A DNA stretch of 64,000 nucleotides from Yuukianura sp. NJ FZ-2021 (taxonomy: Eukaryota). This document shows positions 5,663 through 24,411 of the stretch, one piece after another. The stretch lies in NCBI GenBank assembly GCA_046563655.1, contig CM102285.1:1240001-1304000 (forward strand), given 5' to 3'. The position numbers were made by a program, and so were the translations under genes. Numbering within the stretch: position 1 is the first letter of the stretch; each line of letters opens with the position of its first letter. The notes beneath the pieces were generated by a model. That model was not told the DNA's origin and searched no databases. It saw only the letters and a list, made by a program, of their open reading frames with translations.

Positions 5663-7006
5663 ATGGACAGCCAGGTTATTCGGCTGCGTTGGACCAGTCA
5701 TCAAGGCACTGTTTTGTCAGTATTCGATGCCCTGCTATCCAGTGAGTCCCTGGTGGATGTCACTCTTGCCTGTGATGGGCAATATATCCGAGCCCACAAA
5801 GTTATACTTTCGGCATGCAGTCCTTACTTCCAGGTACTTACTTACACTTTTTACTAACAATTCTGATTACGATACAAATATGGAGCTTATTGTTGCTTAT
5901 GTGTGTTGTTTGCTACACTAGGATCTTATCAATATCGACCCCAACAAACATCCAATCTTCTTCCTCAAGGATGTCAAGTACACTGAACTGAAGGCGCTTA
6001 TTCAATACATGTACCGTGGAGAGGTCAACATTCCTCAGGATGATCTCCCCTCTCTTCTGGCAGTTGCACAAGCACTCAAAATTCGGGGTCTCGCCGATGT
6101 TGAAACTGCCAATAACAGTATTGCCTCAGATACAATTATCCTTCCAGATCTTTCTAACAAAAGTCGAGTCACAAAGCAACCACCAGCTCCAGCTCCACCA
6201 GTTGTTCCTGTGGCTCCACCATCACCAGTTCCAGCACCAACTTCGGCCGCCTCATCTTTCAATATGGGTGCCCCACGAAACTTTCCAGAGCATTCATTCA
6301 CTCAGAATTCAGTTCCTCCGAGCCCCATTGGGGTACCCATTGCTGCAACTGGCCCTCCGACTCCAAAGAAGCCTAGGACTGAAACACGCTCTTCTACTCA
6401 AGCCGCCGCTGCTGCTGCTGCGGCATTACAAAAACAGTCTCAGATGATCGATCCACTGCTTGATGTTCAGTCTGCTCCTATCAAATCTCAATTGACCGAT
6501 CCTCTACAAGCTGCCTCTACTTCAAGTACCTCCAGTCATTACGATTCACCTGGTTACTCTGGACACTCCCGCGACAGGGACTACGGACAGAGCGGAATGG
6601 TGGAAGACACTGAGCCTTTCGAAATCGGAGTTGACGTGGTCAGTTTAATAATACAAAATGTAGTTTAACCAAAACGAATGTAGTTCCAGTGCTTACGTTT
6701 TTGTTTCCGTTTTCTAATATTTTTAGATGAAATTGGAGGCTACTGGTCCTATCGATATCGAATTGGAGGAGGAAGAAAACTCCATGAGCCAATCAAGTAA
6801 TCACCAAACTATGATCAACTAAACTTTTGAGCTATTAATAAGTTATGAATTGAATAATAACATAATTCCATTGATTTATTTTCCAGGTTTTTCTGAGCCT
6901 TGGCAAATGGGCGACGGTGACGGTGACAATTCTCAAATGCCTGACGACGACGGAGAGATGCCTGGCGGATCCGGAAACAACGACGGTGGTGCTGAAGGCG
7001 GCGAAG
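5663..7006 (+). CDS. Tramtrack-group BTB/POZ transcription factor, copy 1, constant exons 5663-5833, 5922-6638, 6727-6796, 6887-7006 (lola/mod(mdg4)-like)
   Basis: BTB motifs LRWTSHQ..LVDVTLACDGQYIRAHKVILSACSPYF..HPIFFLKDV..LIQYMYRGEVNI..LKIRGL. Intron phases 0,0,1. Ends in a phase-1 donor GAAG|gtaagc with no stop codon. Confidence 0.93.
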
Positions 7007-7013
7007 GTAAGCC

Positions 7014-7073
7014 CCGAACTTCTTTTGCCTTTGAGTTTATATGCCATGGCGACCTTGAGAGGTTCACCACGTT
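7014..7073 (+). promoter_or_regulatory. Putative RNA docking site, copy 1
   Basis: ccgaacttcttttgcctttgagtttatatgccatggcgaccttgagaggttcaccacgtt, identical to 19816-19875. Its reverse complement recurs upstream of the variable exons. Confidence 0.85.
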
Positions 7074-7475
7074 AAAACAAAGTCGTAAAGTTAACGATTT
7101 ACAAAAGATCACAACTGATCAGACATAACGTTTTTAAAGATGTCTTTCCTTATTTATAACGTTTTCTGTCTCGAAAGTTTCAAATTGAAACTGCTTGAAT
7201 CTTTGGAATCTTTCCGAATGCTTTCGCTTCGGAATACTTCATTTCAAAATTGGATTACTAAACTAAACTGGTTAAGTCGTATTCATGTTCCAGTATCATT
7301 GCCACTTATCCGAACATAGGCAAATTCCGCTTGAATTTGAAATAACATAACGGTGCTTTGCTTATTCTTGTTGCTGAGTTTATTGATTCGATGATCAGCT
7401 GATTTCGTGAGATCATGACCAAGTATTGGTGGATACCGAGCTCTCTTTTACTCTGACACTCTTTTGGAAAAAAAA

Positions 7476-7498
7476 CTTAAGTTCGCCATGGCATTCAA
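7476..7498 (+). promoter_or_regulatory. Proximal selector-like element
   Basis: cttaagttcgccatggcattcaa, identical at 20353-20375, and 19/23 identical to the docking-site reverse complement. Confidence 0.7.
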
Positions 7499-7841
7499 TC
7501 GAGTCGGATCGATTGTCTCTAAGCAACGATCGTCGATTTGTCGCTTCTTCAGCTAAAAACTGTTACGGTGTGACAGTTTTGCTACTGCAAAAGGCTTGCT
7601 CCACTAGCAAGCCCAGTCATTTTAGCAGAAATGCGCCAATGGCAATTGCAATTAATGAAATCTGCAATTTTGGTGACGTGATTTGTGAAAGTACTATTTA
7701 CTTTCAGTAAACTGCTCTGCTTTATCTCTGCTAGCAGTCATGAATTAACAAAAACATTGAATAGGTATAATGTGTTACTCGCTTGAACTGAAATGTTAGC
7801 CATATTTTGTTGGTCACAAGCGGGTATTTGTGTTGATTAAG

Positions 7842-8041
7842 GTTGCGTTAACACATGGAAGTGTCACGGTTGTGGAAATACTTACCCTGACAAAGGGTTA
7901 TTGGATCATCTTCGTCACGCAGCAAATGACTGTGAGTTTCAGTCCAAATTGGCTGATCTGCGATGTCCCTTAAGGTGTACTTTTGTGGCGAAAAAGAAAC
8001 ATCACTTATTGGCTCACATGAAAAAGAAAGATCACATGTAG
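7842..8041 (+). CDS. Copy-1 alternative terminal exon, double zinc finger
   Basis: Phase-1 acceptor; CHGC..HAANDC..CPLRC..HMKKKDH*. Confidence 0.75.
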
Positions 8042-8293
8042 GATCCGAAGACTGTTTACTTTTTTACCATACTCAAAAATTTCGGTTTTTGTGAGTAAAA
8101 TTTCGGTGGTTCTGTGAAACATCAGTTTTGAGTTGTGAAGTTGTCGTTTGTGCGTAAACGTACTAACGTTAACGTTGTGGTGTGCCAATCAGGGCCGTCT
8201 GGTGTTGACTTGAAGTTGAAAGTTTTGGAATTTGGAATTGAGAGTAGTTTCTGGCGTAATCGGTGGCTCATGATTTTTTGTGGTTTGATTCAG

Positions 8294-8592
8294 GTGGAAT
8301 TATGTGTCGTGCTTGTCGTAAATTTGTGACGCAGAAGAGTCGCAAAATGCATTTACTGTATGATTGTCCAGCAATTCCACCTAGATTCAGTTGTACTCTG
8401 TGTCCGTTTAAGGCAAAACGCAATACACATCTCACTAATCATATGAATCGGGTACACGCCAAAGTTCCGGAAGTTCAAATCCACCAAGATGTAGATAATC
8501 TCGGTTTTGAGTCTCTGAAACACGGATTGTTTGAGGTATTGTGCGACACGACTGCTAGTTTGGGTGCTTCGTCAATTGACGGAAATAGTTAA
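8294..8592 (+). CDS. Copy-1 alternative terminal exon, CCHC+C2H2
   Basis: tcag|GT GGA; CRAC..HLLYDC..CTLC..HMNRVH. Confidence 0.85.
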
Positions 8593-8970
8593 TGTGTTAG
8601 GTCATGGTTAGGTTACGGGGTTTGATTTTGCTTAGATTAGAAACCAGAGTCAGTTTTGGACAATCAAGTCATATTTTTTCAGTTGATTTTTATTATTTTG
8701 GAAGCTACTAACCTTGATTTACTAAAGCAATATCTGTCGTTTTGTATGTGTTTGTGTGTGTGGATTTCTTGTTTAATTTTTATGAATTTTTGCAATTTTC
8801 AACGTTATAGTTGACAAATTTTCTTCAGTTTTTTCAAAATCGTTTTGAATTAATTTTTACTTTTGCCATATTTCGGCCGTTCTTTTTTTTATTTTACCTT
8901 TCATTTTTCTGAAGATCTCTCTCATTGTCGTCTGTGGTGAATTTTCTTTAAACTAAGATTTCTGTTTTAG

Positions 8971-9074
8971 AAGAAATACTGGAAGCAAACGTGGTTTCGA
9001 ATTCTGGAGAGCCGGAAGCAGGGAATGGGTTATACAGATACAGTGAACATTTTTTCTTGAGCCGACGGTTCTGA
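8971..9074 (+). CDS. Candidate finger-less alternative terminal exon
   Basis: Phase-1 acceptor ttttag|AA GAA, open to TGA (EILEANVVSNSGEPEAGNG..). Selector-like tctctctcattgtcgtc at ~8916. Confidence 0.35.
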
Positions 9075-9383
9075 AATTACAGTTTTTGGTGCGAGAACAG
9101 AATTTGATTAATCCCGGTAATAGAAAGCTTTACACTTGTGCTTATGTGCTGAATATAATTTTTAGTAACTTTTAAATAGTTTTTTTTTAAATAAAGACCA
9201 AGTTCTGAATCGGAAGAAATTTTGTAGAATTCGTAAAAGTTGGATATTTCTGTGCCTGAAGAAAAATTTGTTTAACTTTTCTGATTTGTGTTTCCACTCA
9301 AAGTCGTCATTTTTTTGCCTCGATTTTTTTTGTACAACGAAAAAGAAAAATCGATGCGAAAGGATTTTTTTTTGGTGGTTTAG

Positions 9384-9684
9384 AATGTCGGTATCGTTGT
9401 CCAAATTTTGGTTGTAAACGGCGTTACCGGACACGAGGAGGTTTGAGGAACCATATTCGGTGAGAATAGTCAAAAATTTTGAAGAGTGCAAAATTATTTT
9501 TAAAAAAAATCTATGTTCATTTTTCTGAAATATTCATTTCGTTTTTAGAGATAATTGTCAAAAAGATCCGAAGTTTTATTGCCAATGTGGTTTCAAGAGT
9601 CATCGAAAAGGAAATTTAAAAGCACATTTGAACAGGAGTGGCCACTCTCCCCTATCTAACGTAACTTGTTCAAAAAGGCGGTAA
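9384..9684 (+). CDS. Copy-1 split zinc-finger cassette (9384-9459 + 9549-9684)
   Basis: CPNFGC..HIR|DNCQKDPKFYCQC..HLNRSGH. Selector ccactcaaagtcgtcat at ~9294. Confidence 0.8.
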
Positions 9685-9940
9685 AAAAAAAAAACAACTT
9701 AAAATTTGAATTTTGTCAATTTTTCAAAATTTTGGATTAAAACCGAGAATATGTTTTTAGCAAGTTGGGGTCTAGAAAAAGGCACTGTAAGGGAGAAAGT
9801 TCCTTTAATGTTTTAAAAAGTTTCTCTAGAATCTGGAAAATTGTCGTTTAACTTTTTTGAATTTGAATTGGAGTGAACTTCTCAAGCGTCAAAGATGTTT
9901 CAAAATTTTGGTTTTGTGAGATTCTTGTTGGTATTTTAGG

Positions 9941-10218
9941 GATTTTTAAAACGAAGCGGTTTTATTGCCCCACTCCACTCTCTCGAACCATCTTCGGTAG
10001 GTTGTTTTTGAAATTTTGAACAGTTTTAGTTTTTGAGTTCATTTTCTGAAAAAAATGTTTTTGGAGTTTTGCATTTGTTACAGAGATGAATGTCAAAAAG
10101 CTCCGAGGTTTCATTGCAAATGTGGCTACAAGAGTCATCGCAAGGGAAATTTAAAATCACATTTGCTGAGAAGAGGGCATTCCCCACTGTCTAGTGGCCT
10201 TTTCAAAAAGAGGTCGTA
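9941..10218 (+). pseudogene. Copy-1 cassette with an internally deleted, frameshifted first half
   Basis: CPTP is followed by a deletion relative to the paralog at 11095. The second half (DECQKAPRFHCKC) is intact. Selector gtgaacttctcaagcgtc at ~9873. Confidence 0.65.
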
Positions 10219-10597
10219 GTGTATGAAATCATAATGTGCGTTTAAAACGGTTTTGAATTGTGTAAAATTTTGAAATTTTGAATTGTAAAATTCGGGTCTA
10301 GAAATGTACTCCTTAAATATTTTAAGAAGTTTCTTTGAATTTAGATTTTTAAAGGTTTACTTTTTTTCAGTAGGCAAAGGCCAAAGCTGTTTAAGTTTTA
10401 AGTTTTCAATTTTGTTTAGATTTTCGATTTTTTACTTGAATGAAATTTTTTGTAAATTATTGATTTGTCAAGATTACTCTCCTCAAAGTCGCCATTGTTG
10501 TAAATTAACAATTTTTTTTACTCATTTACTCAAACTAGGCTTTCATCGTTTTTTGATTTTTTTTGACGTTATTGACTTTTTTGCTTGGGGCAAATAG

Positions 10598-10899
10598 AGA
10601 CACGATTCCGTTGTCACAATGTTGGCTGTAGTCGTTGGTACTTGACAAAAGGAGGTTTGGGGAAGCATTTGCGGTGAGGAATCGAAATTTGGAACTTGAT
10701 TTTTTTTAAATTTCTTGAAGTAAAATCTAAATGAATTTCTTCTAGATTGTACTGCCAGAAAGACCCCAGTTTTCATTGTGCTTGTGGGTCCAGGTTTTTT
10801 CAAAAAGAACACTTATTAAAAAGGCATTTGCAAAAAACTGGGCATTCTCCTCCTACTCAGTCAGTTTTTATGACAAAACGAAAACATACTGGAAAATAG
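10598..10899 (+). CDS. Copy-1 split zinc-finger cassette
   Basis: CHNVGC..HLR|LYCQKDPSFHCAC..HLQKTGH. Selector ctcaaagtcgccat at 10482-10495. Confidence 0.8.
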
Positions 10900-11094
10900 G
10901 CTTTTGCCATTTCAAATTTTTGAAATCCTGGTGTGAAATTTTGTTGAACGGTTTATTAAAAAAAAAAGTCTCCCTTTGGAATCTATGTTTTGGAAATTGT
11001 TGATGAATTAAATTTTAAATTTTAAATTGTAGTGAACTTCTCAAAGGTCGAAGATTTGTTTCGGATTTTTTTAGATTCTTGTTGGTTGTTTTAG

Positions 11095-11412
11095 TGATTT
11101 TTAAAAACAATCGGTTTTATTGTCTAACTCCAAATTGCGGTCGTTCTTATCGTCACAAAGGTCATCTCGCTGACCATCTTCGGTAGGTTCGTTTTCAAAA
11201 CATGAAAAGGTTTAGATTTTTAGTCTTTTTCCGAAAAATGTTTTAAAAACTTTATGGTTTGCGTTTGTTTTTAGAAATGAGTGTCAAAAGGATCCGAAGT
11301 TTCATTGCAAATGTGGTTACAAGACTATCCGAAAAAGAAATTTAATATCACATTTGCAGAGGATGGGGCACTCTCCACTGTCTAGTATCGTTTGTCGAAA
11401 AAAAGGCGGTAG
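11095..11412 (+). CDS. Copy-1 split zinc-finger cassette
   Basis: CLTPNC..HLR|NECQKDPKFHCKC..HLQRMGH. Selector gtgaacttctcaaaggtcg at 11032-11050. Confidence 0.8.
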
Positions 11413-11588
11413 ATTATGAACAAAGATGTTAGTTTCCGTTTCAATTGTGTGAAATGGAAGTTGAAATTTTTTTTTCTACTTTCCTCAAACTCGCCATCGG
11501 TGAAAATCGACTTTTACATTTTTTTTTGTTCATTTAAAAAAAAGAAACATACTCTCGTGTAACTTCTTGTTTTTTTTTTCGCAAATAG

Positions 11589-12464
11589 AGATTCAGTATC
11601 ATTGTCCGAATTTTGGCTGTAATCGTGGTAGAGGTGAGCGCCCGCTCATATTTTAAATTCCCGCCCGGACAACGCCCGCTCTGATTTTCGCCCGACCGCG
11701 CCCGCGCCCGATGGGCAAGTGAAAAAAAAATCCCGACCGCCCATCGGGCACCCGAAAATCCCCGATGCCCGAAACATAAAATGACGCATTGCCAACTCTT
11801 ATGGTTTTATTGTAATTTCCGGGGCTTCCTTTTTTACTAAATAAATACTCATATCAATAGCTAGATATTATTTAATGTTGGAGTGGATAAACGTTAATTC
11901 TTTTGATAAACTACTTTAATATAAAAGATAATTTGTCTTCTATGTTTGGAATTCTCAGTTCAACCGGGTTTTAGGGGGCTTTAAGAGTTCCGCGCGTGGA
12001 AAGTGGCGATGCAGATCTGGAAAAATTATTTTACCCTTTGATTTTCACGTGTACCTTTGCACTTCGGGACTATTTCGGGCGCCCGATTCCCGCTCATGCC
12101 TGTGGCCGCCCGCGCCCGTCCCGCCCGAAAAACCAAACTGCACCGCCCGCCCGTCCCGAGACCATGGGAATCCCGAAACTTCGGGAGTATTTCCGGGAAT
12201 CCCGGTCGGGCGCTCACCTCTAAATCGTGGGTACTTCACAGTAGGAAGTTTGTGGCGTCATTTGTGGTGAGGATATAATTCGCATCTAAATTTTGAAGTT
12301 GAGCTTTTTTATGTACTAAATTGTGGGAAACTAAATTTATTTTTAGGTATTACTGCCACTGCCAGAAAGATCTTACTTTTCATTGCGAATGTGGTTTCAA
12401 GTTTTATCAAAAAAGATTCTTAACCAAACACGTGAAAACTAGTGGGCATTCTCCAATTTTTTGA
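11589..12464 (+). pseudogene. Copy-1 split cassette disrupted by a MITE
   Basis: HCPNFGCNR[insert]GYFTVGSLWRHLW|YYCHCQKD..; the frame is restored if the MITE plus one TSD copy is removed. Confidence 0.8.
11629..12222. mobile_element. hAT-like MITE
   Basis: TIR TAGAGGTGAGCGCCCG / CGGGCGCTCACCTCTA; 8-bp TSD aatcgtgg (11621-11628, 12223-12230); GC-rich subterminal cccg repeats. Confidence 0.9.
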
Positions 12465-12558
12465 AAATGCGAAATCGTTGTCCAGAGTTTTTTTTTAAGT
12501 TCATTTCAAGTAATAAAATCGCTCTTGGTTTTGACCTAACTCCGCTCAAAGTCGCCAT

Positions 12559-13172
12559 TAGAGCTTGACTATTCGAACACGTATTCTAATATTCGAATAA
12601 CGAAGTTTTTTTCGAATATCAAAATCAACTATTCGAAGTTCCGAATAATTCATTCCGCAGTATTCGTTGAACAAAAAAATGATTTAGTGTATAATCCCTA
12701 ACGATTAATTTTGGTCTAAATGTAAATGTTTGTAATTGTCGCTCATACTCTACCAAGTTTAGGGAACAAAAAATCTAATGTGAAAAAACGACCGAAGTAG
12801 GAATAAACTATCCAATGTTTCGTCACTCATTGGACGAAACATTGGACGCATGCATGAGCGTTCAAATTCAGTCGTTGCAACTTTTTTGCATTTTGATCTT
12901 TGGTTTAATTTGATTTTTGGTTCTTTTAATTTTGAACCGACAGAGCACTGTCTACACCCCAGTGGTCTTTTTATTACAAAATGAAACGAAAAAAACACGC
13001 AAAAGACGTGCACTGGAGGACAGATCTCAAAAGCTTATTAGGGTTTAAATTGGGCTGGTTTTCCTCCTAGGTATTCGAATACTTTCCTAAGATATTCGAA
13101 TAACGAACACCGCTAAAAACCGGTATTCGTATTCGAATATTCGAATAGCATTATTCGAATAGTCAAGCTCTA
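12559..13172. mobile_element. hAT-like MITE at the inversion breakpoint
   Basis: 19-bp TIR TAGAGCTTGACTATTCGAA / TTCGAATAGTCAAGCTCTA; subterminal TATTCGAATA repeats; the two flanks differ (no TSD). Confidence 0.85.
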
Positions 13173-16160
13173 CAATGGATGGTTACACAAAGGGTTCAAG
13201 CGATGCAATGTATTGTTACGCCAACCAGCACGTCACCAAGATTCTACGGGGTGAGGTACTGAAGAGTGACAGACTACATATTACTTCCACTTTGTTGCCA
13301 TCTGAACTCTTTTCCGATTAACAGGAAAAGTGACCCGAAGTGGCAACATTGGTTGTCGCATCATGTATGCACTCACTGCCTCGTCGCAGGGTACCGTAAT
13401 CACGCACCGGAACATGGCTAAACTTGGTATCCCAATTGGCTACGCAATCCTTAGTTCAACCCGGATCTGTTCAAAGGACACCACACGGGGTCCTACCACC
13501 CCATCATAAAAATGGGCACATAATCCCATTTAACATATACTAATAGGAGTTTATTTAATTTATATTTAAGTAATTATATTAATAATAAAAAATATACAGA
13601 AGGAAGATTAAAGTCCCTTTAAACAGTTACGTTAGGTTTTAAGTTAAGTCAAACCACCAAATATAAACAAGCATTTCAAGCATTCAAGCGTATTTAAATT
13701 AAACTAATTTTAACTCAACCTAACAGAACTAATGTACGTTTAAGGTACGCTTCCGCATTATCCATTAACGTTAGCGACGTTTCCGCAGCTGATAAAGGTT
13801 TAACTTTTCTGCAACTTACCACTTAAATTGGAAAAAATGCCGAATTAAGAAACTTTGCTTTTAATAGTTGTCGCTTATAGATTATATTATAATTTACATT
13901 ATATTAATAATTTACATAGTTTTAGTCTGCGACGACCTTTTTACCGTGATCTTTCTCTTGGTGACGACCTAGATTGACTTTCCAATGAGTTTTGTAGCCA
14001 CATTGGAAGCAGTGGAAGCGAGGCTCTTTGTTACACTCATGCCTACAGAAACAAAAATACAAAAAAGTCAAACTTTTCGAAATTTTAATTTTTTCTAATG
14101 TTGCAAATTAAAGTGTTATAAATAAAAACTCAAAAATTTAGTTTTGCAGAAGGATATTGATACGACTGTGTCCGTCGGTCTGCACCAGCTTTTGTAATGA
14201 AGGTCTCCTTGTGATGAAGAGATAACAGATAGACGAACAGACAGACAGACAAAGTCATATAAATAGCCTTCTTTAGCTTATCGGTATCACAGCTTCACAG
14301 CCCGTGTTTCTAATTTTAGTGCACGTTAAACTTACTTCAAATGGAATGTCAAAAACTTGTTTTTGTTGAAGGAGCGACTACAGCTTGGAGTTGGGCAGTA
14401 GAACCGATTTCCTAAAAATCGTTATGCAAAAACTTACATTTTGAAATCCTAATTAAACGATAAAAGAAATTTCCAAAATTAATGTTAGAAAACTTTAATT
14501 TCAGGACAATTTTGAAAATCAAGATCTGCAATTTTTCTTCCGTTTAGTTTTTTTTACCAGTTCCATTTCTGTTGAAACGTTTTTGGTTCCTGTCCCGTTT
14601 TCGTTTTCGTTTAGAAACGAAAGGAAACGGAACTTCAACCGCCCTACTGTCACTGTCCTCCATTGGCCAAGGTTCCGCAAAATCTAGCCACCACACACAC
14701 ACAAAATTTTTCTCTTTGTTCTTAGAGTTTAGAAAAAAAAAGTTGAAAAATCAAAATTCAAAAGTTTTGGTTTGAAAATTACTAGATTGGCTTAAGGAGT
14801 TTTCTTGTTGTAGATCAATTTTGATAGGACCAGTAGCTCCCAACCTCAACTAAAAAAAAACATTTTTAAATTTTGAAATATTTCGGAGTAAAGTCATCCA
14901 TAAAAACCAGCTTAATTGCTATGGCTACTTCACCATGTCTGTTGGAATTCCGAAAGCGTCTTCAACCATTCCGAGATGTGTAAACGGTGCAGTTAATACT
15001 AAAAACTTTTTCTTGACAATGTCACGCAATAACTCGAGTTTTAATTTTTTTTGGACAAAATTTTAAAATAGAATTATTCACAATAAGTAAGGTAAGGTAA
15101 ATTTAATTTTAGAATTGAAAGAGAGACGAGTAATACTTCACCACTTTAAAATCTTCTGTTTTCAATAGTAAGTACTCCTAATTTGCAAATTTGCAAAAGT
15201 TACACCATAAAATCTGCTCAACATTTTCTTCAAAAATTGGAAATTGAGGAGAAAAAAGTAAGAAAGTGGTGAAATAAGATAATGGAATTGTAACAACACG
15301 GGATTTTTCACACTCGAGTCATTGACTAAAACCTATCAAAGAAAATCTAACTCGTTGTCAATGAATTTTGGTAGATTTTAGTGAAAGCGAATGGAAGTAC
15401 TTTACGTTGGGACAACTTTATAGTGGATCAATAAATTCAGACTTTATAGAAAGCGGAGGCTGAACTTTCTACTAGAAGAGGGTCGATCAGCTGAGACTGT
15501 TTTTGAACTGCAGCATAGGCTACTTGAACAAAATAGAACATGTTTCCCCTTCACGAGTTTTTTTTTGGTGGCGGAGACCCTTAAGGGATTCTTCGTGCAC
15601 GGATGGGGCTAGAAAGTACTGAAATTCGGTATTAGTACAGTAGGACCTCTAATTCAGAAACTTTGTTGGAACTGGGACGCTGTAAAAGTGAACTTTTTAG
15701 GGCCTTTTAGATCATTTTTTTTTGTTTCAGTGTAGAAGTAGAAGGAAAAGGAGGAGCGTCCATGGGGCGAAGCCCCAGCACGCATGCGTAGCATCCGGGG
15801 AAATAATAAAACCTATTATTAGTTCAACCGATTACTAATTAAGATCAGCAATTACAAGCATGCTGCGCTTGCTTGCTGGAGCTTCGCCCTAGACCCGTAG
15901 AATCTTCCTCAATTAACTTACATTTAAGTGTTATTTTAAAAAAACAAAAATTCTCTACACCCAAGAGATTTAGCAAGGCCTCGTTTCGAGTAAATATTTG
16001 TTAATAAAAAGTGAAAAGACAATTTTTTTTTGAAAAATACAAAAGATGTTTTGGGTCCAGAAAATAAGTCCAACTTTCAAAAAAATACTTTGTTTGGCTC
16101 ATTCATTTCATTACACGTTTCATAGTTAATAACAATAAGGTTTACGCATGTTTTTGTCCA
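13173..16160. repeat. Arm B of the inverted segmental duplication
   Basis: Reverse complement of ~1780-4815. Confidence 0.9.
13922..14969 (-). CDS. Second (inverted) copy of the BTB-less zinc-finger mini-paralog
   Basis: Same five exons with intact splice sites. The two finger exons differ from the + copy only at synonymous sites. Confidence 0.7.
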
Positions 16161-16289
16161 AAAAAAAATGGTCGAGAATTATTCCAGTGCGGGCAGGGTC
16201 CGTCTTTTTCATTCGTCTGAACTTCAGTCACGGTTTTCTGCAACCAAAAAACATAGAAGATGTTGTGCATTAACATTTTCTGGAAACAC

Positions 16290-16531
16290 CAAGGTTCGTA
16301 AACCAAAATAAAAAAAACAATTTTTCTACATCAGGTTGTCCAGTAACTGGAACTTTTAAAATTTGTTTGAACAAAAAATTTTGACTTTCCATGGTAATTT
16401 TTTGCATGTGATGCAAATGGGATTGGTGCAGAATTGGTGCAGAAATTTGTTTGGAGTAAGATTTTTGGAAACCATGAGGTACTGGATAACCTCTTGTAGA
16501 CTGGTTGTAGATTGGTTGCTATAGCAACCTT
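16290..16531. mobile_element. Small MITE-like repeat (related copy ~47874-48093)
   Basis: Shared aaggttcgtaaac..ttttctacaYcaggttgtccaRtaact..aaatgggattggtgc..aaccttg; AAGGTT/AACCTT ends. Confidence 0.6.
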
Positions 16532-18453
16532 GGGATTGGGAAACACTTTCTCCGGCTCAATTTGCTACAAGGTAACTAAACAAAATAATACACCGCATTC
16601 CTCATTAGAAAGCTCGTGTGTCTTTTTGTTTAGTTGCCTTGATTTGCTACAAGAAATTTCTGGTTGTTTTTTTAATAGCTTGCTGCAAATCGTGTTGACA
16701 GGGAGTTTCCCGTCATAAACTTCCCTCATTCTTTTTTTATGTTTAATTCTACCACATGCTTTTACAATGCAGCGGGTAGGCTATGGGAAACCCCCCCCCC
16801 CTCTAGACCCCCCAGCAAAGTTTTCTTTAGTGTTTAGTGGGGGAAAATTTTGATGTAACTTCCCCAACCCAAATGTATCAAAGAACATACAGCATCGGGG
16901 TACGGAAGCCATTTTAAGTACATGTAGTACATGTAATTTGTGCTGTGCATAAGTGCGTGATATTGCGCAGCATACATAGAAGAAACCACCAAACCCTCCG
17001 CCTTCATGCATCACCACCCAGGTCCTGCCCTTCACAACCCACGCTGAACCGTTGAGCGTCGGCAAGCGTCTCTTCCCCGTTTTTGTTGCCACCTTGGGTT
17101 GGGCTTCTAATGTTAACCCAGAGTGCATAGTGGAAGATGTGGCTACACTGTGAAGCTGAATTGCGGTTGCCATGCCTCACCTACCCAGATAATTTTGATG
17201 GCGTTCTGGTTGGCGAACACAGGAATTACATCCCTTGTATCCGATGGGGTAACCACTCACTGTAACCACGGCGGAGTTACTTTGAAACAGTGTTGCTGGA
17301 TATCCACTTTTTCAACATTTCGTCCACGGCGAGATATCTAGTGGACAAAATGGATGAATCCAAAGGGCCGGAGCTTTGCGCGCGAGGTGTGAATTAATTG
17401 AATACAAACCGCTTAAACAAGTCAAAATACCGTACAAAAAACGAGGGAAATATCGTTTTTGTATGATTTTTAAAAAAACAGTTAGTTTTAACAATGAAAG
17501 AAACACTTGATATTATTCTGTAATTTTAAGATTGATTTTTTTAAATTTCGCGCTAAGTTCTTAATTTCTTCCATCCACTAAAAGTTTCATCCATTTCGGG
17601 GTGCATTTCTTCCAGTGGATATCCAGTGCAAGCGGCAATTATAAGTCATCGGTCGTGTAAACGTCTGGTAACAATGCTTTCAAGGTTATCTGAATTGCTT
17701 GATTCTTTTTTGAGACGTTTTTCAAATTTTTTTTAAAGCTTGAGGCTTGCCTGAAGCATTTTTGAAAGTTGAAAAAAACGTTCGCGATTGTAATGTACCC
17801 GTATGAACCAAGTTACGCTTATAGTTTGGTGCGGGGTGCGGAAAGTAAAAATTCCGTTGTAGCCAACGAGTTGTTGGAAATACACGTGACCGGTATGGTT
17901 ACAATGCGTACAATTTGATTTACTTCAACCTTCCCTTCCTCCTCACTTACTCCCTTCATCGTCTCCCTCCTTGTCCCCTCCTTCCTCCTTCCTCCATATC
18001 CTTTCTTGACTCCATCAGTGTTGGTTCTCTAGTGCCATTTTCTTGTCGTTTCCCGTACGCGACTCTTTCTTTCCGTTGAATTCTAACTTAAATTAACTTA
18101 ATTTAACTTAATTAACTTACCTTTACTCGCTGTCGACGTAAATCTACTGAAAGTTTCCATCAGGGGTCACGATCGGTTCGAATATCGGGATTGACTGCCG
18201 TTCCAGTGTCGCAAATAGGCACGACACCCCCAAGAGCACAGTGGAGTCCATGAGCTATTGATTTTTCTGAGGTAGTAATCGATATCCATATTCTCCCTGT
18301 TTCGTTAGTTTCTACTTCTTGGTAATGGTGGAACTGATGGCTACTTAGTTTAAACTGCATTTAACATCTCATTTTTGTTTGTATTTAGTACATTGCTTTA
18401 GATCCGTACGGCATACTGTATTAGAGCGGTTGGCAGGAAACGATTACGCAACG

Positions 18454-19808
18454 ATGGACGGCCAGGTTATTCGGCTGCGCTGGACCAGCCATCAAGGCAC
18501 TGTTTTGTCAGTATTCGATGCCCTGTTATCCAGTGAGTCCCTGGTGGATGTCACTCTTGCCTGTGATGGGCAATATATCCGAGCCCACAAAGTTATACTG
18601 TCGGCATGCAGTCCTTACTTCCAGGTACTTATCATACTTTTTACTAACAATTTTGATTACGATACAAATATGGAGCTTCTTGTTGCTTATGTGTGTTGTT
18701 TGCTACACTAGGATCTTATCAATATCGACCCAAACAAACATCCAATCTTCTTCCTCAAGGATGTCAAGTACACTGAACTGAAGGCGCTTATTCAATACAT
18801 GTACCGTGGAGAGGTCAACATTCCTCAGGATGATCTCCCCTCTCTTCTGGCAGTTGCACAAGCACTCAAAATTCGGGGTCTCGCTGATGTCGAAACTGCC
18901 AACAACAGTATTGCCTCGGATACAATTATCCTTCCAGATCTTTCTAACAAAAGTCGAGTCACAAAGCAACCACCAGCTCCTGCTCCACCAGTTGTTCCCG
19001 TGGCTCCACCATCACCAGTTCCTGCACCAACTTCAGCCGCCTCATCTTTCAATATGGGTGCCCCACGAAACTTTCCAGAGCATTCATTCACTCAGAATTC
19101 AGTTCCTCCGAGCCCCGTCGTGGTACCGATTGCTACTACTGGCCCTCCGTCTACCAAGAAAGCTAGGACCGAAACACGCTCTTCCACTCAAGCCGCCGCT
19201 GCTGCTGCTGCTTCAGTACAAAAACAGTCTCAGATGATCGATCCTCTGCTTGATGTTCAGTCTGCTCCTATCAAATCTCAATTGACCGATCCACTACAAG
19301 CTGCCTCTACTTCAAGTACCTCCAGTCACTCTCATTACGATTCACCGGGTTACTCTGGACACTCTCGCGACAGGGATTATGGTCAACGCGGAGCTGTTGA
19401 AGATACTGAACCGTTCGGGATTCCAATTCCAACCGACGTGGTAAGCCTAATGGTCAATAGATTACTCCTTTTTTCGTTTTTAATGTCATGTCTTATGAAA
19501 ACTTTCTGAAATTATTTTTCAGTTGAAACTGGAAGCGACTGGACCTATCGAAATTGATCTGGATGAAGAAAACTCCATGAGCCAATCTAGTTAATCACAA
19601 ATTAATCAATCTAACATTACTTGAGCTGTGCTAATAACTTATGCATTGGAGGATAAACCTAATTCCATTCCATTGTCTTATTTTCCAGGTTTTTCTGAGC
19701 CTTGGCAAATGGGCGACGGTGACGGTGACAATTCTCAAATGCCTGACGACGACGGAGAGATGCCTGGTGGATCCGGAAACAACGATGGTGGTGCTGAAGG
19801 CGGCGAAG
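18454..19808 (+). CDS. Tramtrack-group BTB/POZ transcription factor, copy 2, constant exons 18454-18624, 18712-19440, 19523-19589, 19689-19808 (lola/mod(mdg4)-like)
   Basis: BTB domain essentially identical to copy 1; same intron phases; ends GAAG|gtaagc in phase 1, matching the downstream cassettes. Confidence 0.95.
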
Positions 19809-19815
19809 GTAAGCC

Positions 19816-19875
19816 CCGAACTTCTTTTGCCTTTGAGTTTATATGCCATGGCGACCTTGAGAGGTTCACCACGTT
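19816..19875 (+). promoter_or_regulatory. Putative RNA docking site, copy 2
   Basis: Reverse complement aacgtggtgaacctctcaaggtcgccatggcatataaactcaaaggcaaaagaagttcgg matches motifs upstream of most cassettes. Confidence 0.88.
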
Positions 19876-20352
19876 AAAACAGAATCTTTAATTTTTTAAA
19901 CAACTTTTTTAACTTTCCAAAAAGATCACAACTGATCTGACATTTGATAACGCTCATATCTCATTTACTCAAATTGAATAACGTTTTCTGTCAACAAGCT
20001 TTCTTTGTTACATACGGAAAAGACGCGGAGCTTTTTTTATATCCATTTTCTGTGAAATCAGAGTTTTAGACGGTCAGTTTCTCCTTTTGACAGTTTCGAG
20101 TTTGTCACTGAGCTTTTTAGTACTTTAGGCAGAGGAGTTTAGTTCAGGGCCGGAAATTTTTAAAAGTTTTTCCAGAAGAAAAAAGTTTTTCAGAAAAAAA
20201 CTTCTGTTTTTAAAACTAGTTCAGTGAAATCTAGTGAAAAGAGAGACACGACATGAATGCAAGAGAGGAGCCCTTTGAAATTGTGAAGAATTTTTTGAAA
20301 AATTTTCAAGTCGTGGTTAGTGGAGCCTTTGGAACATGAAAAAACGAAGATG

Positions 20353-20375
20353 CTTAAGTTCGCCATGGCATTCAA
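20353..20375 (+). promoter_or_regulatory. Proximal selector-like element
   Basis: Identical to 7476-7498 within otherwise unalignable intron sequence. Confidence 0.7.
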
Positions 20376-21371
20376 CCGAGCCCTTTTCCACTACTACTGC
20401 TGTGCTGTGCAATCGGTTCAAGTGCTCCCCCCTTCTTCGCTTTGTCTTGTTAAAACTATGTTGAAAATCATGCAATTTCCCGCTCTCACGAACATTGAAA
20501 TCGTGTTTGGGGAATGAACAATGACGGAGGAAAAAAGAGTGGGAAAAAGTTTGAACAACGAAGTTTAAAAAATTTATTCAAAAAGCCCCTCTGTACTTCC
20601 TCTTTTTAAAAAGTAGAAAGGGCTCGGACCCAACTTTTGTTCAACTGTTCAAAAACAGAACAGAAAAATTAAAAATGTGTGTTGGCAAATGTCCAACTAA
20701 CAAAAAACATGAGGCATACCAAATGTGGACATGTATGGTTTCATGCCAGACTGTTCAAACGAACAATGAGATACACATGCCGTAGCATTAGCATTATCTA
20801 TACCTAAGTTGGGCATGGGCGGGGAATTTGAATTTTTTTGGAAATTCATAAGAAGCGGGAAGTGCAAAACTTGCATACTATAGGTTTAGAATTAACTGCG
20901 ATTTTTTAAAGAATGTCTGTCCAACTAGTTAAAGTTGAACTGAACTGCATACTATCTTTTCAATTTTGAAAGATTTTCAAAAATTTTAATTTTGAAAAAT
21001 TTGAAGACTTTTACTAAAGTTTAGTATTTACTACACTGACTGTCAATGGATTGATTTTCTCGGTGAGAATTGCGATTGTAGCAAATTGAATGTCGAATTA
21101 CTTTCTTGCTTTGCTCTAACCTGTTTGCTGTTTTCGAAATTGAAGGTTTGGTTTGTTTTTGAAAAAGTGGAAATTTTTGAAAAGTGAAATGAGTGACTGT
21201 GTCACTCGGATTGTAAAATGCGGAATTCAGTTTGGAATGTTAAAGTTAAAAATGAGTTGGTGGTCCATGGTCTTCTTGGGAAAGTATAAACTCAATGGCG
21301 ATGGAGTTTTGCAAAATGTTTTTTTTTTTTTTGAAAAGCGGGTAATTTGAGTTTTGTTTTTGTCTTTGTAG

Positions 21372-21595
21372 TAATTCGAGTGAATGGGCAGAGGAGGTTT
21401 AGTTGTAGAAGATGTAAGAAGAGTTACGCTCAAAACGTATCACTCACGCGACATATTCGTTACCAATGTGGTGTTGAAATTGGAGAATTTGAATGTCGAT
21501 ACTGTGGCAGAAGAAGTAAATTACTTCAGAATTTGAGGTCACATGAAATGACATGCAGAAAGAAATTGGCCAAGTTGAAAAAACTAAAAAATTAA
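21372..21595 (+). CDS. Alternative terminal exon, CCHC+C2HC fingers
   Basis: CRRC..HIRYQC..CRYC..HEMTC. Selector tataaactcaatggcga at 21285-21301. Confidence 0.85.
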
Positions 21596-21912
21596 GAAAA
21601 AAAATTTCTACTAAAAAAATTGTAAATTTTAGTTTGAATTTTAGTCTTAAATTTTACTTGTTTTTTGTACACTTTGTTCAAAGTTGGTCCTAATGTTTTT
21701 GAATTAAGAAATTAAAAATTCGTAGATTAAAATTTTTTAGTGTTAATTGGAAAATGTGGGATTCAGATTGCAAAATGTGGCTTTTGAAGACGTGTGAGTA
21801 AAGTCAAGGTCGCTCTGATTGATTGGCATGTTTGCTTGGAGGCAAAAAGTTTCAAAATTTCTTTTGAGATTCAAAATTTTCGTGTTCAGGGTTTTGGTTT
21901 TTGAGTTATGAC

Positions 21913-22419
21913 CAGGGCTGCAAAAAATATTTACTAAAAACCCCCAAAATATTTATTGAAATATTTACTGAAAAACGGCACTATATTTAAGAACATATTT
22001 ACTAACCAAGTCAATATTTACAAAATTTTACCTTGAAATCACATAAATTCAGTTGGCATTTGTTAATTTGTCACTGATGCGTTCAACGCAACCGGGATTT
22101 TGAGTATTGCTAACCTGAACTATATTTTCTTTCTTGGGTTTAGAAGTCAACAGGATATCGAATTTGATTAAGGATGGCTTTGCTGTGTCTTTATCGGTTG
22201 AAAAAGCAAAAATTGTTAACCGAGGATGACAAATGTCATCAATATACCGAAATTTTGGTCCGAAAAACACTGAAACGGCTAAAAATTTACAAAAAATATT
22301 GATTATTTTTCAAAAACAGTCAGAAATTTAGAAAAATATTTATATTTTTTAAAATGGCAGAATATTTTTTTTAAATATAAAAATATTTAATATTTAAGAA
22401 AATATTTTTTGCAGCCCTG
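21913..22419. mobile_element. hAT-like MITE
   Basis: TIR CAGGGCTGCAAAAAATAT; 8-bp TSD gttatgac (21905-21912, 22420-22427). Confidence 0.9.
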
Positions 22420-22452
22420 GTTATGACGGAAGGTTTTAATTTTTTGCCGTAG

Positions 22453-22724
22453 ATATTTGGATTTTGACTGATTCGGAATGGGAGCCTTATACAAGGACGC
22501 TGTCAATGGGTGCAGGGCGGCTAAAGTGTCGTTACTGCGGAATGATGTTTAGGCAGGGAAGTGCGTTGTGTCGACATCGCAAGTACAGTTGTCCTAACTT
22601 GCAATATGAATTGACAACTTGTGACTTATGCGGAGCTCGTATGAAACCGAGGTCACTCATGGACCATAAAAGAGCCACTTGTAGAGTTGTCAGGGCCAGA
22701 CATAATGCAGAACCTGGAAGTTAG
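22453..22724 (+). CDS. Alternative terminal exon, double finger
   Basis: CRYC..HRKYSC..CDLC..HKRATC. Selector tcaaggtcgc at ~21804. Confidence 0.85.
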
Positions 22725-23018
22725 AAGTTACCTTAGGAATTTTGCAATTTACTGAAGTATAGGTTGGATTTTTTGGTTTTGAGTAATTGTGAGATTTATG
22801 TATAATTAAACTGTAATTTTGGTGAAAACAAACATTAGTTTTGAAATAGTTTTTTAATGTTTTGAAAACCGGATATTTTTAGTTGAGTTTGTTTGATATT
22901 GAGAGAACTTCACAAGGTCGCTATTCCGTTGAATTTGAGTCAGAAATTTCTCTTTTTATGTCTGTTTGTTTAGTTTTTTTTTGTTAACTATTTTTGAATC
23001 GAAATTTTGAAATTTTAG

Positions 23019-23263
23019 TTTTGGATTGGAATAATTGCGGTGGTTCGGGGATTGGGGAGAGGATTTTTCTGAAACCTGTTTTGAAAATGACCGGAAGTAG
23101 TGGAACAGCGAAGCCACATAAGTGCTTATGTGGATACGGATCAGAACGAAACTATAATCTGAAGAGACACCAAGAAATTTGTCAGCAGTATCGCTATTTG
23201 AGAGCGAAATCTGAGCATACGCATAGCGCGAATCAGGAGAAATCTCGACGAGGGCGCCACTGA
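23019..23263 (+). CDS. Alternative terminal exon, single C2HC finger
   Basis: CLC..LKRHQEIC. Selector gaacttcacaaggtcgctat at 22905-22924. AATAAA at 23406. Confidence 0.75.
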
Positions 23264-23726
23264 ATTTGTTTCATACGATTTTGCTATAAATGTTAAGTAT
23301 AAGTGGTACAATTTTTGCTAATTTCAGGAATTTCCGACGCTGATTAATTGCATTTAAAAGGCATATATGTATGCTAAGGAACTTAATTAATATATACTGT
23401 AGCATAATAAATTTATTGAATAACCTAACCTAAGTTTATATTGAAGAGAGACTTTTTTCTCGAAATTTGAATTATAAACTGTCTTTCGGACTTCAAGTTT
23501 TGGATTCTTGGTTGAAGAAATTTCGCAAATTGGGTCGAGTAGGTTTAAATTGAAGTACAATTTTGTGAGTAGTAAATTTCTATGTTGGCGGTGAATTTTG
23601 AGTTTGAAGTGTGTTTGGGCTGTTTGGCGTTGGTGTGTTTGGTGGCAATTTCAAGAGCCGCTATGGCATATTGTTGGACTGTGCAAATATTTTTTTGCAA
23701 TGTTGCAAATGATTGATTGTTGTAAG

Positions 23727-23947
23727 GGTTTTTGGGACGTGGGTTGTGCTGTCCGAGATGTGGAAAACGGTATCATGCCCAGCAGAAGTCAGCATTTGAC
23801 AAGCACATCATGTACGACTGTGCAAAAATTCCGCCAAAATTTAAATGTGGACTTTGCGATTATGTGGCACGAAGAACGACTTACTTTGAAGCTCATTTCA
23901 AACGGTATCATCCGCAGAACGAAGTTTCGTATTTCAAATACTACTAA
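23727..23947 (+). CDS. Alternative terminal exon, YDC-type CCHC+C2H2
   Basis: CPRC..HIMYDC..CGLC..HFKRYH. Selector cgctatggcatat at ~23659. Confidence 0.85.
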
Positions 23948-24223
23948 TTGGTGGATTTGGAATTTTTATTACGTAGTTTAAGAAAAAATGTAGGTGCTAA
24001 CGATATGTGCAGAACCGTCTAAATCGATGGATTTTGAATTTTTTAGATGATTTTAAAACCGATAGAAAATATTTCATTTTAGCACGTCAATTACGCAAAT
24101 TTTCCGTTTTCCAAAAGCGGCAATTTTTTTTAAAGTACAAAACCATTTCTCAACACGCCATGGTGTATAATAAACCGAAATTTGGAAAATTTCTTAGTGA
24201 AACGTAGGTTTTTTTTTTCTTAG

Positions 24224-24411
24224 GAAAGTTGAAATGTACGCGTTGTGGAAAACGGTACTCGGCTGAGCAGAAGTCAGCTTTTGCGAATCACGTAACTTAC
24301 GATTGTCCGTTCGTTGAGCCAAAGTACAAATGCATCAAGTGCAAATACTTGTCCAGAAGGAAGAAACCGCTCATGCAGCATTTGGCAAAGTTCCATAAGG
24401 ACATTTTTTGA
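24224..24411 (+). CDS. Alternative terminal exon, YDC-type
   Basis: CTRC..HVTYDC..CIKC..HLAKFH. Selector ttctcaacacgccatggtgtata at ~24147. Confidence 0.85.

What the first reader, a model, noticed from the sequence alone, without database searches (positions are those of the whole stretch)
5663..19881. Twin BTB genes keep an identical docking site, allowing possible cross-gene or trans use of arrays
The intron starts at 7007-7079 and 19809-19881 are identical, while the preceding short introns and the sequence further downstream diverge and exon 3 has several amino-acid changes. Copy 1 has its own small selector-tagged array (7.8-12.5 kb). Inference: with identical docking sites on the same strand, copy-1 constant exons could reach copy-2 cassettes by read-through or trans-splicing, which is established for mod(mdg4) and lola. 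The GCCATGGC core is self-complementary, so two pre-mRNAs could also pair with each other.
Basis: partly seen in the sequence, partly recalled or inferred. Interest (0 to 1): 0.72.

Follow-up and report, generated by a model that had tools for sequence, protein, structure and literature searches.

The report
Twin lola-like genes share docking site
Two neighbouring copies of an arthropod lola-like transcription-factor gene keep a letter-identical RNA "docking" sequence that matches short tags placed before nearly every one of about 60 alternative zinc-finger endings, which probably picks one ending per mRNA; whether the two genes also borrow each other's endings is untested.

Summary
A 95-nt block (6985-7079 = 19787-19881) is identical in two tandem BTB genes, while introns 2 and 3 are 45% and 65% alike and the sequence diverges sharply from 7080 on. 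Both copies have intact constant exons with GT/AG borders and dN/dS of 0.14.

Intron nt ~20-73 behave as a docking site. The + strand of 7.1-62.5 kb holds 54 complementary sites, against 4.5±2.6 for shuffled docks and 3 on the - strand. In 57 of 59 zinc-finger units the best upstream duplex beats its reverse-complement control. These selectors lie 50-100 nt before the acceptors examined. Copy 1's small array is also tagged (8 sites against 1.25 expected).

A 28-nt proximal selector survives in both copies (27 of 28 identical) inside otherwise unalignable sequence. This points to selection, not only gene conversion.

Cross-gene or trans use is permitted by the shared docking site but is not needed to explain it, and it is not shown. 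The only RNA data were short metatranscriptome contigs. Their single copy-1/copy-2 joint can be a k-mer assembly chimera. The GCCATGGC palindrome is not unusual in itself.

Four literature searches found no docking/selector system described for lola.

The parts
5663..7006 (+). Copy 1 constant region: exon 1 5663-5833, exon 2 5922-6638, exon 3 6727-6796, exon 4 6887-7006. It ends in phase 1.
   Evidence: All borders are AG/GT and the frame is open. BTB Pfam hit of 34.4 bits against a cutoff of 20.5 in exon 2. An exact contig in run X1 joins 6796 to 6887 (GT..AG, side 29 nt).
7007..7079 (+). Docking site of copy 1. The first 73 nt of the last constant intron are identical to copy 2. Selector pairing uses nt ~20-73, most heavily nt 40-60. 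There is an internal hairpin, nt 10-23 with nt 42-59.
7103..7125 (+). Conserved intronic island (the same in copy 2 at 19925-19947 except for one letter) holding a small inverted repeat. Role unknown.
   Evidence: Pairwise alignment.
7476..7503 (+). Proximal selector S0 of copy 1. 27 of 28 nt are identical to 20353-20380, within unalignable flanks. It pairs with dock nt 21-54 (-33.4 kcal/mol).
7841..12558 (+). Array 1: 7 zinc-finger cassette units, with the first fingers of the units at 7862, 8392, 9580, 10115, 10777, 11306 and 12384. Selectors at 7476, 8176, 9294, 9873, 10482, 11028 and 12542.
   Evidence: In 6 of the 7 units the upstream duplex is stronger than the reverse-complement control.
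13172..15749 (-). Partial lola-like copy B, the inverted twin of 2297-4816. It has exon 2 tail-, exon 3- and exon 4-like pieces plus one two-exon finger cassette. No docking site was seen. It lies between array 1 and copy 2.
   Evidence: Self-BLAST gives 89.5% over 2605 nt; sequence reading of the twin.
18454..19808 (+). Copy 2 constant region: exon 1 18454-18624, exon 2 18712-19440, exon 3 19523-19589, exon 4 19689-19808.
   Evidence: Borders and frame. Exact X1 contigs cover exons 1, 2 and 4.
19809..19881 (+). Docking site of copy 2, identical to 7007-7079.
20353..20380 (+). Proximal selector S0 of copy 2 (-34.5 kcal/mol with the dock).
21284..60657 (+). Array 2: 52 zinc-finger units as clustered (three of them merge 2-4 cassettes), each preceded by a selector. 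Proximal selectors (20-31 kb) pair with dock nt ~30-45 and distal ones (45-62 kb) with nt ~45-65.

Best explanation
These are two tandem paralogues of a lola-like BTB/zinc-finger gene.

How it most likely works:
- In each copy, the intron after the last constant exon begins with a docking site.
- A selector sits 50-100 nt upstream of the 3' splice site of nearly every zinc-finger cassette and can form a 25-36 bp duplex with that dock.
- Pairing loops out the cassettes in between and brings one acceptor next to the exon 4 donor.
- All selectors overlap the same dock nucleotides, so only one can be bound at a time. This gives one cassette per mRNA.
- A hairpin inside the dock and a conserved proximal selector (S0) probably form a default closed state.

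Why the docks stay identical: any change would weaken many pairings at once (a multi-partner constraint), and gene conversion between the copies helps.

What follows for cross-use: because the docks are identical, the pairing code cannot distinguish the two donors. Cross-gene splicing is allowed, but it is neither required by the data nor shown.

Shown: the sequence anatomy, the statistics of complementarity, and the integrity of both copies. Inferred: that the duplexes form in vivo and steer splicing, whether in cis or in trans.
For: - Identical block with sharp borders.
- Complementary sites on the + strand of 7131-62500 at score >=30: 54, against 4.5±2.6 (maximum 15) for 200 dinucleotide-shuffled docks and 3 on the - strand, one of which is the dock's own complement. 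At score >=36: 28 against 0.3.
- By region: array 1 has 8 against 1.25 and array 2 has 57 against 8.3. In both, 0 of 300 shuffles reach the observed count. The spacer at 12.7-17.9 kb and the left flank are at background.
- In 57 of 59 finger units the best upstream duplex beats the reverse-complement control. Means are -35.1 against -23.6 kcal/mol.
- In the 17 selector regions printed, the selector lies just upstream of a pyrimidine tract and AG. The one acceptor I checked by hand is in phase with exon 4.
- Duplexes have 25-36 pairs.
- S0 is 27 of 28 identical between the copies, in flanks that do not otherwise align.
- Both copies are intact, with dN/dS 0.14.
- Exact RNA-library contigs exist for both copies.
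- Cassettes of array 1 are only 27-57% identical in protein to any cassette of array 2, so the arrays are not redundant.
Against: - No RNA read shows an exon 4-to-cassette joint, so the use of these acceptors is inferred from sequence.
- There is no related genome for covariation, and no genome is held for this window. The dock does not vary, so compensatory changes cannot be counted.
- Gene conversion clearly acts in this pair. Intron 1 is 95% identical. Synonymous divergence is mosaic, from 0.09 in the BTB part and exon 4 to 0.34-0.95 in the exon 2 tail and exon 3. Conversion alone could therefore produce a ~200-nt tract with two changes.
- Two of 59 units lack a better-than-control duplex.
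- Enrichment of poly(A) signals after cassettes is modest: 46 of 59 against 33 of 59 on the opposite strand.
Confidence: 0.72

Rival explanations
1. The two genes really share their arrays. Copy-1 donors reach copy-2 cassettes by read-through, or donors of either copy are trans-spliced to cassettes of the other, guided by the shared dock.
For: - The docks are identical and both arrays carry selectors for them.
- Both genes are on the same strand. Copy-1 exon 4 lies 14 kb from the first copy-2 cassette, which is less than the 40 kb that copy 2 itself must span.
- In Drosophila, lola is trans-spliced, and lola and mod(mdg4) form chimeric mRNAs (Gao 2015, PMC4387717, passages read).
- Cross-cluster trans-splicing helped by RNA pairing is shown for mite sDscam (PMC9258826, abstract read).
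- One X1 contig joins copy-1 exon 1 to copy-2 exon 2.
Against: - That contig has a 27-nt side and a single discriminating SNP. The SNPs lie 45 nt apart in the spliced form, which is more than k = 31, so it can be a graph chimera. The same sample also holds a third variant.
- No exon 4-to-cassette joint was seen at all.
- All cassettes are on the + strand, so nothing in the structure demands trans-splicing.
- There is no strong U1-binding pseudo-5' splice site of the Drosophila TSA kind.
- A minus-strand gene fragment and copy 2's own upstream region lie in the read-through path.
- Identity of the docks is explained without cross-use.
Confidence: 0.2
2. The identity is only a recent gene-conversion tract covering exon 4 and the intron start. 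It carries no information about function.
For: - Divergence is mosaic.
- Intron 1 is 95% identical, and synonymous divergence in exon 4 is 0.09.
- There are two changes in ~200 nt, and both falling in the exon part is not improbable (about 0.33 by my arithmetic).
Against: - The tract borders coincide with the exon 4 acceptor tract and with the end of the region that the selectors use.
- The isolated 28-nt S0 island and two further islands are kept within unalignable sequence, where a conversion tract is unlikely.
- The excess of complementary selectors exists whatever the cause of the identity.
Confidence: 0.1
3. The block is conserved for a reason other than RNA-RNA pairing. It could be a protein-binding splicing element, or coding sequence of an intron-retaining short isoform, since the frame stays open through it in both copies.
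For: The open frame runs from exon 4 through the block to 7128 in copy 1 and to 19891 in copy 2. The Drosophila mod(mdg4) intron works through protein-binding motifs rather than pairing (PMC13490949, abstract and passages read).
Against: All 24 codons are also identical at silent positions. A coding or protein-binding role does not explain 54 strand-specific complementary sites placed before the cassettes.
Confidence: 0.05
4. The two copies are mis-assembled haplotypes of a single gene.
For: The coding parts are very similar (BTB part: 1 amino-acid difference in the first 190 residues).
Against: - Introns 2 and 3 and everything beyond 7130 do not align. Synonymous divergence in exon 3 is 0.95.
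- The arrays hold different cassettes. Both copies lie 12.8 kb apart in one stretch without N.
- Exact contigs of both forms occur in one RNA sample. That is expected of paralogues, though it would also be seen for alleles.
Confidence: 0.02

Closest known systems
Docking site / selector sequences of insect Dscam1 exon 6 (Graveley 2005; cited from the reference lists and Discussion text of PMC6191721)
   Same: One conserved docking site sits in the intron after the constant exon. One selector lies upstream of each of dozens of variable exons. All selectors compete for the same dock, so one variant is chosen.
   Different: Here the variable units are 3'-terminal coding cassettes, each with its own stop codon, not internal mutually exclusive exons. 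The gene is a BTB/zinc-finger factor. The dock exists in two paralogous genes. No experiment has been done.
Competing RNA pairings in 3' variable regions: Drosophila PGRP-LC, CG42235 and Pip (Pan et al. 2018, PMC6191721; abstract and section 17 read)
   Same: The dock lies next to a common 5' splice site, and selectors lie before alternative 3' cassettes that carry their own 3' ends.
   Different: PGRP-LC has three major 3' isoforms by the abstract; cassette numbers for CG42235 and Pip are not in what I read. Here there are at least 59 units in two arrays. That paper's Discussion suggests such pairings 'might be less common' in 3' variable regions.
Drosophila lola and mod(mdg4) trans-splicing (Horiuchi 2003, cited; Gao 2015, PMC4387717, passages; NAR 2026, PMC13490949, abstract and passages)
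   Same: A TTK-group-like BTB constant region is joined to one of many alternative C-terminal cassettes. For lola these are C2H2 finger pairs.
   Different: In Drosophila no donor/acceptor complementarity was found, and a U1-binding pseudo-5' splice site and protein-binding motifs are implicated. Here there is a clear dock with selectors, no strong pseudo-5' splice site, all cassettes lie on one strand, and trans-splicing is untested.
Cross-cluster trans-splicing of mite sDscam-beta helped by RNA pairing (Hou et al. 2022, PMC9258826; abstract read)
   Same: Tandem clusters share pairing elements, so exons of one cluster can be joined to constant exons of another.
   Different: There the variable exons are 5' and the constant exons 3', and chimeras were measured. 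Here the topology is the reverse and no chimera has been shown.

Membership tests
Docking-site/selector competing RNA pairing | A single docking sequence lies in the intron next to the common splice site. | tested here: met
   Dock at intron nt ~20-73 directly after exon 4 in both copies.
Docking-site/selector competing RNA pairing | A selector complementary to the dock lies upstream of each variable unit, on the transcribed strand only. | tested here: met
   54 sites against 4.5±2.6 for shuffled docks and 3 on the - strand. 57 of 59 units beat the reverse-complement control. In the 17 regions printed, the selector sits 50-100 nt before a pyrimidine tract and AG.
Docking-site/selector competing RNA pairing | Selectors overlap on the dock, so pairings are mutually exclusive. 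| tested here: met
   Dock nt 42-58 are each covered by 26-38 of the 53 selectors with score >=30 (6 in array 1, 47 in array 2). Exclusivity in vivo is inferred.
Docking-site/selector competing RNA pairing | Conservation or covariation across species. | not testable with these tools
   No genome is held for this window, and no close relative was found in the protein search. Paralogue comparison is the only substitute: dock 73 of 73 and S0 27 of 28.
Docking-site/selector competing RNA pairing | Disrupting and restoring the pairing changes exon choice. | not testable with these tools
   This needs minigenes or genome editing.
lola (longitudinals lacking) orthologue | N-terminal BTB domain of the arthropod TTK group. 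| tested here: inconclusive
   Pfam BTB is met (34.4 bits against a cutoff of 20.5). The Atlas neighbours are arthropod BTB proteins. The TTK-specific motif was not scored.
lola (longitudinals lacking) orthologue | Common exons are followed by many alternative 3' cassettes encoding pairs of C2H2-type fingers. | tested here: met
   59 finger units, all on the + strand, each ending in a stop a median of 12 codons after the last finger. The splice joints themselves were not seen in RNA.
lola (longitudinals lacking) orthologue | Sequence orthology to Drosophila lola. | tested here: inconclusive
   21 of the 31 hits are named 'longitudinals lacking'. The aligned part is only the BTB half (22-35% of the query, mostly 51-62% identity; range 33-62%). 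bric-a-brac, broad and abrupt score nearly as well.
Drosophila-type lola/mod(mdg4) trans-splicing | A strong U1-binding pseudo-5' splice site (TSA core-like) in the last common intron. | tested here: not met
   No site with 8 or more of 11 matches to the 5' splice-site consensus between the dock and the first cassette in either copy. Only one 8-mer of that consensus occurs in the whole window, at 61486. The consensus was typed from the paper's motif and from recall.
Drosophila-type lola/mod(mdg4) trans-splicing | Chimeric mRNAs formed from separate transcripts. | tested here: inconclusive
   A single contig joins 5831 to 18710 with a 27-nt side. It is compatible with a k-mer chimera or with allelic variation.

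The most novel reading that the evidence does not exclude
One RNA pairing code serves two adjacent genes. Exon 4 donors of either lola-like paralogue pair with selectors of both arrays, in cis by read-through or in trans. Two constant regions would then combine with about 60 zinc-finger endings. Base-pairing-guided trans-splicing would then exist in a lola-type locus. This is the mechanism that was looked for and not found in Drosophila lola and mod(mdg4).
Probability: 0.2. Interest if true: 0.85.

Novelty: new member of a known kind. Interest (0 to 1): 0.6.

Why it matters
How lola and mod(mdg4) join one constant region to dozens of alternative endings is called 'still unclear' in print (PMC11426971, passage read). 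For Drosophila mod(mdg4), RNA pairing has been argued against (PMC13490949).

This locus shows a lola-like gene with a plain docking/selector layout, on a scale of at least 59 units. That scale is comparable to Dscam1 exon 6, for which I recall 48 variants.

The locus also comes in two diverged copies that act as a natural replicate. The dock and the proximal selector were kept while the surrounding introns decayed. This makes pairing-guided choice of 3' cassettes, and possibly pairing-guided trans-splicing between genes, directly testable with copy-specific primers.

If only the ordinary reading holds, it is still a new and very large example of competing RNA pairing in a 3' variable region.

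Four full-text searches found no paper that combines lola with docking site, selector sequences or competing RNA. Subscription journals and supplementary files were not visible to me.

Tried and rejected
- RNAduplex of the whole 73-nt dock against 50-nt windows did not discriminate (919 against 425 windows at -25 kcal/mol). I replaced it with an ungapped scored scan and a per-unit comparison.
- Public RNA: only three weak holders were found (shares 0.20, 0.07 and 0.05; all contigs). When laid, they gave no cover of any cassette junction. Parts without cover say nothing.
- The 5831-to-18710 joint was rejected as evidence (27-nt side, one SNP, SNPs 45 nt apart).
- The loose ends at 9346 and 22323 lie in A/T-rich low-complexity sequence with no acceptor, and were not pursued.
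- No genome is held for the window. No earlier notes of this scan exist.
- The protein search found no close relative, so no cross-species comparison of the dock was possible.
- The Atlas only says 'arthropod BTB'.
- The idea that copy 1's own selectors use only dock nt 35-65, which would leave the rest of the identity unexplained, was dropped. Gapped duplexes span nt 21-72.
- The palindromic core as a special dimerisation signal was rejected as not significant.
- Duplex strength does not rise with distance along array 2 (Spearman 0.07, p = 0.63).
- My first exon coordinates were off by 1-3 nt and were corrected.
Full report
**What is there.** The window holds a very large arthropod BTB/zinc-finger locus of the lola type.

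Two sets of constant exons lie on the + strand:
- Copy 1: exon 1 5663-5833, exon 2 5922-6638, exon 3 6727-6796, exon 4 6887-7006.
- Copy 2: exon 1 18454-18624, exon 2 18712-19440, exon 3 19523-19589, exon 4 19689-19808.

All borders are AG/GT, and both copies end in phase 1. Exon 2 carries a Pfam BTB match (34.4 bits against a cutoff of 20.5). Most of the named relatives (21 of 31) are called 'longitudinals lacking'. Only the BTB half aligns, mostly at 51-62% identity (range 33-62%), and bric-a-brac, broad and abrupt score nearly as well. I therefore call the locus lola-like and do not claim orthology.

Downstream of each constant region lie open frames with C2H2-type fingers, all on the + strand. 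Clustering gives 7 units at 7.8-12.5 kb and 52 units at 21.3-59.5 kb. Three of the 52 merge several cassettes. A stop codon follows the last finger by a median of 12 codons.

**The observation.** 7007-7079 equals 19809-19881, and the exact match runs for 95 nt (6985-7079 = 19787-19881).

Identity by segment:

| Segment | Identity |
|---|---|
| Upstream region | 74% |
| Exon 1 | 97% |
| Intron 1 | 95% |
| Exon 2 | 93% |
| Intron 2 | 45% |
| Exon 3 | 85% |
| Intron 3 | 65% |
| Exon 4 | 98% |
| Dock | 100% |
| 7080-7130 | 75% |
| Beyond 7130 | none |

Between 6878 and 7079 only 6966 and 6984 differ. Directly after 7079, 9 of 17 positions differ.

Synonymous divergence is mosaic:

| Part | dS |
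|---|---|
| BTB part | 0.087 |
| Middle of exon 2 | 0.154 |
| Exon 2 tail | 0.34 |
| Exon 3 | 0.95 |
| Exon 4 | 0.09 |

Overall dN/dS is 0.14. Both copies are therefore under purifying selection, the duplication is old, and parts of the pair have been homogenised.

**What the block is.** I scored ungapped antiparallel pairing to the 73-nt block (GC 3, AU 2, GU 1, mismatch -4). Complementary sites in 7131-62500:

| Score threshold | + strand | - strand | 200 shuffled docks |
|---|---|---|---|
| >=30 | 54 | 3 (one is the dock's own complement) | 4.5±2.6, maximum 15 |
| >=36 | 28 | 1 | 0.3 |

By region at score >=28:
- Array 1 has 8 sites against 1.25 expected.
- Array 2 has 57 against 8.3. In both arrays, 0 of 300 shuffles reach the observed count.
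- The spacer at 12.7-17.9 kb and the left flank are at background.

Twelve other 73-mers from the window, mostly intronic or intergenic, gave 1-32 sites at >=30 and 0-3 at >=36.

The sites alternate with the finger units in the order selector, cassette, selector, cassette. For each of the 59 units I took the best RNAduplex in the interval upstream. It is more stable than in the reverse complement of that interval in 57 of 59 units, with means of -35.1 against -23.6 kcal/mol.

I printed 17 selector regions. In these, the selector lies 50-100 nt before a pyrimidine tract and AG. The one acceptor I checked by hand completes the codon left open by exon 4. Gapped duplexes have 25-36 pairs.

Selectors cover dock nt ~27-72, most densely nt 40-60. 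Their footprint moves along the dock with position in the array, from median nt 30-45 at 20-31 kb to nt 45-65 at 45-62 kb (Spearman 0.65, p = 7e-7, n = 47).

This is the anatomy of a docking-site/selector system. It is known from Dscam1 exon 6 and, for 3' variable regions, from PGRP-LC, CG42235 and Pip (PMC6191721).

**The twin aspect.** Three things bear on why the docks are identical.
- First, copy 1's own selectors pair with dock nt 21-72. Each copy is therefore constrained by its own array.
- Second, a 28-nt island (7476-7503 and 20353-20380, 27 of 28 identical) survives about 470 and 545 nt downstream of the two docks, in sequence that otherwise does not align. It pairs with the dock at -33.4 and -34.5 kcal/mol. 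Two further small islands are kept as well. Isolated islands of this kind point to selection rather than a conversion tract.
- Third, conversion does act in this pair, as intron 1 and the mosaic dS show. It could by itself give a ~200-nt tract with two changes.

I conclude that the identity is due to a multi-partner constraint, probably helped by conversion. It does not by itself say anything about cross-use.

Array 1 holds different cassettes from array 2 (27-57% protein identity to the best match). The families appear in the same order: single-exon double-finger type first, split type later. This fits duplication of a whole ancestral locus followed by separate expansion.

**Cross-gene or trans use.** The shared dock means the pairing code cannot tell the donors apart, and Drosophila lola does trans-splice (passages). 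Nothing here shows that it happens.

Only three weak RNA holders were found, and all are kept as contigs. Laid on 5600-25599, run X1 gave exact contigs of both copies:
- copy 1 exon 3 joined to exon 4 (6796 to 6887, GT..AG, side 29 nt);
- copy 2 exons 1, 2 and 4;
- one contig joining 5831 to 18710, that is, copy-1 exon 1 to copy-2 exon 2.

That last joint rests on 27 nt with one discriminating letter (5809 T against 18600 G). The next diagnostic letter (5942/18732) is 45 nt away in the spliced form, which is further than the 31-mers the contigs are built from. A path through the graph can therefore create the joint. The sample also holds a third variant that differs from both copies. I do not count it. 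No exon 4-to-cassette joint was seen.

Structural points against easy cross-use:
- All cassettes are on one strand, so trans-splicing is not forced.
- A minus-strand partial lola-like copy (13172-15749) and copy 2's own upstream region lie in the read-through path.
- No strong U1-type pseudo-5' splice site is present.

**The palindrome.** GCCATGGC is self-complementary, but about 0.47 eight-letter palindromes are expected per 73 nt in this window. The dock as a whole folds better than shuffles (-17.7 kcal/mol; 4 of 300 shuffles reach it) and self-pairs strongly (-40.8 kcal/mol; 3 of 300). This is because nt 10-23 complement nt 42-59. It is an imperfect hairpin that would close on itself before it dimerises. 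I read it as a possible closed state with which the selectors must compete (inference).

**Novelty.** Four full-text searches found no paper linking lola with docking or selector sequences or with competing RNA. For Drosophila mod(mdg4), a 2026 study reports that complementary sequences do not drive trans-splicing. I could not see subscription journals or supplementary files. The locus is a new, very large member of the docking/selector kind, in a gene family whose isoform-joining mechanism is still called unclear. The cross-gene idea remains a testable hypothesis, to which I give about 0.2.

Noticed in passing
2297-4816 (+) and 13172-15749 (-): An inverted pair (89.5% over 2605 nt) of partial lola-like copies brackets copy 1 and its array. 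Each has an exon 2 tail, exon 3- and exon 4-like pieces and one two-exon finger cassette, with no BTB exons and no dock. They may be pseudogenes, or may mark how the duplication arose. An exact X1 contig covers 14108-14293.
   Followed up: partly
1-350 and 1752-2103; related copy at 15754-16289: A 350-nt inverted repeat (99.4% identical) encloses about 1.4 kb, like a foldback or terminal-inverted-repeat element. An 86-89% identical copy sits next to the minus-strand partial copy, so element and fragment were duplicated together.
   Followed up: no
7016-7065 and 19818-19867: The dock is itself an imperfect hairpin (intron nt 10-23 with nt 42-59; -17.7 kcal/mol; 4 of 300 shuffles reach this). 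This may be a closed state with which the selectors must compete.
   Followed up: partly
7103-7125 / 19925-19947 and 7156-7170 / 19978-19992: Two further short islands are conserved between the copies, in otherwise diverged intron. The first contains a 5-bp inverted repeat. Role unknown.
   Followed up: no
19950-62500: Selector footprints shift along the dock with array position: 5' half of the dock for proximal cassettes, 3' half for distal ones (Spearman 0.65, n = 47). This fits expansion of sub-families together with their selectors.
   Followed up: partly
6887-7128 and 19689-19891: The reading frame of exon 4 stays open through the dock in both copies, ending at 7128 and 19891. An intron-retaining transcript would encode a short finger-less isoform.
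   Followed up: no
49492-49794: A tandem repeat gives a repeated NCHLFCIL peptide in one frame. It interrupts the regular cassette spacing and was excluded from the unit count.
   Followed up: no
18596-18786: Run X1 holds an intron-containing contig that differs from both copies at 7 letters and 3 gaps. It could be a third allele, a further paralogue or a related species in that sample.
   Followed up: partly
5088-5603 and 17896-18394: Both copies keep a similar upstream region (74% identity) with what looks like a short 5' UTR exon and intron. Each copy therefore probably has its own promoter.
   Followed up: no
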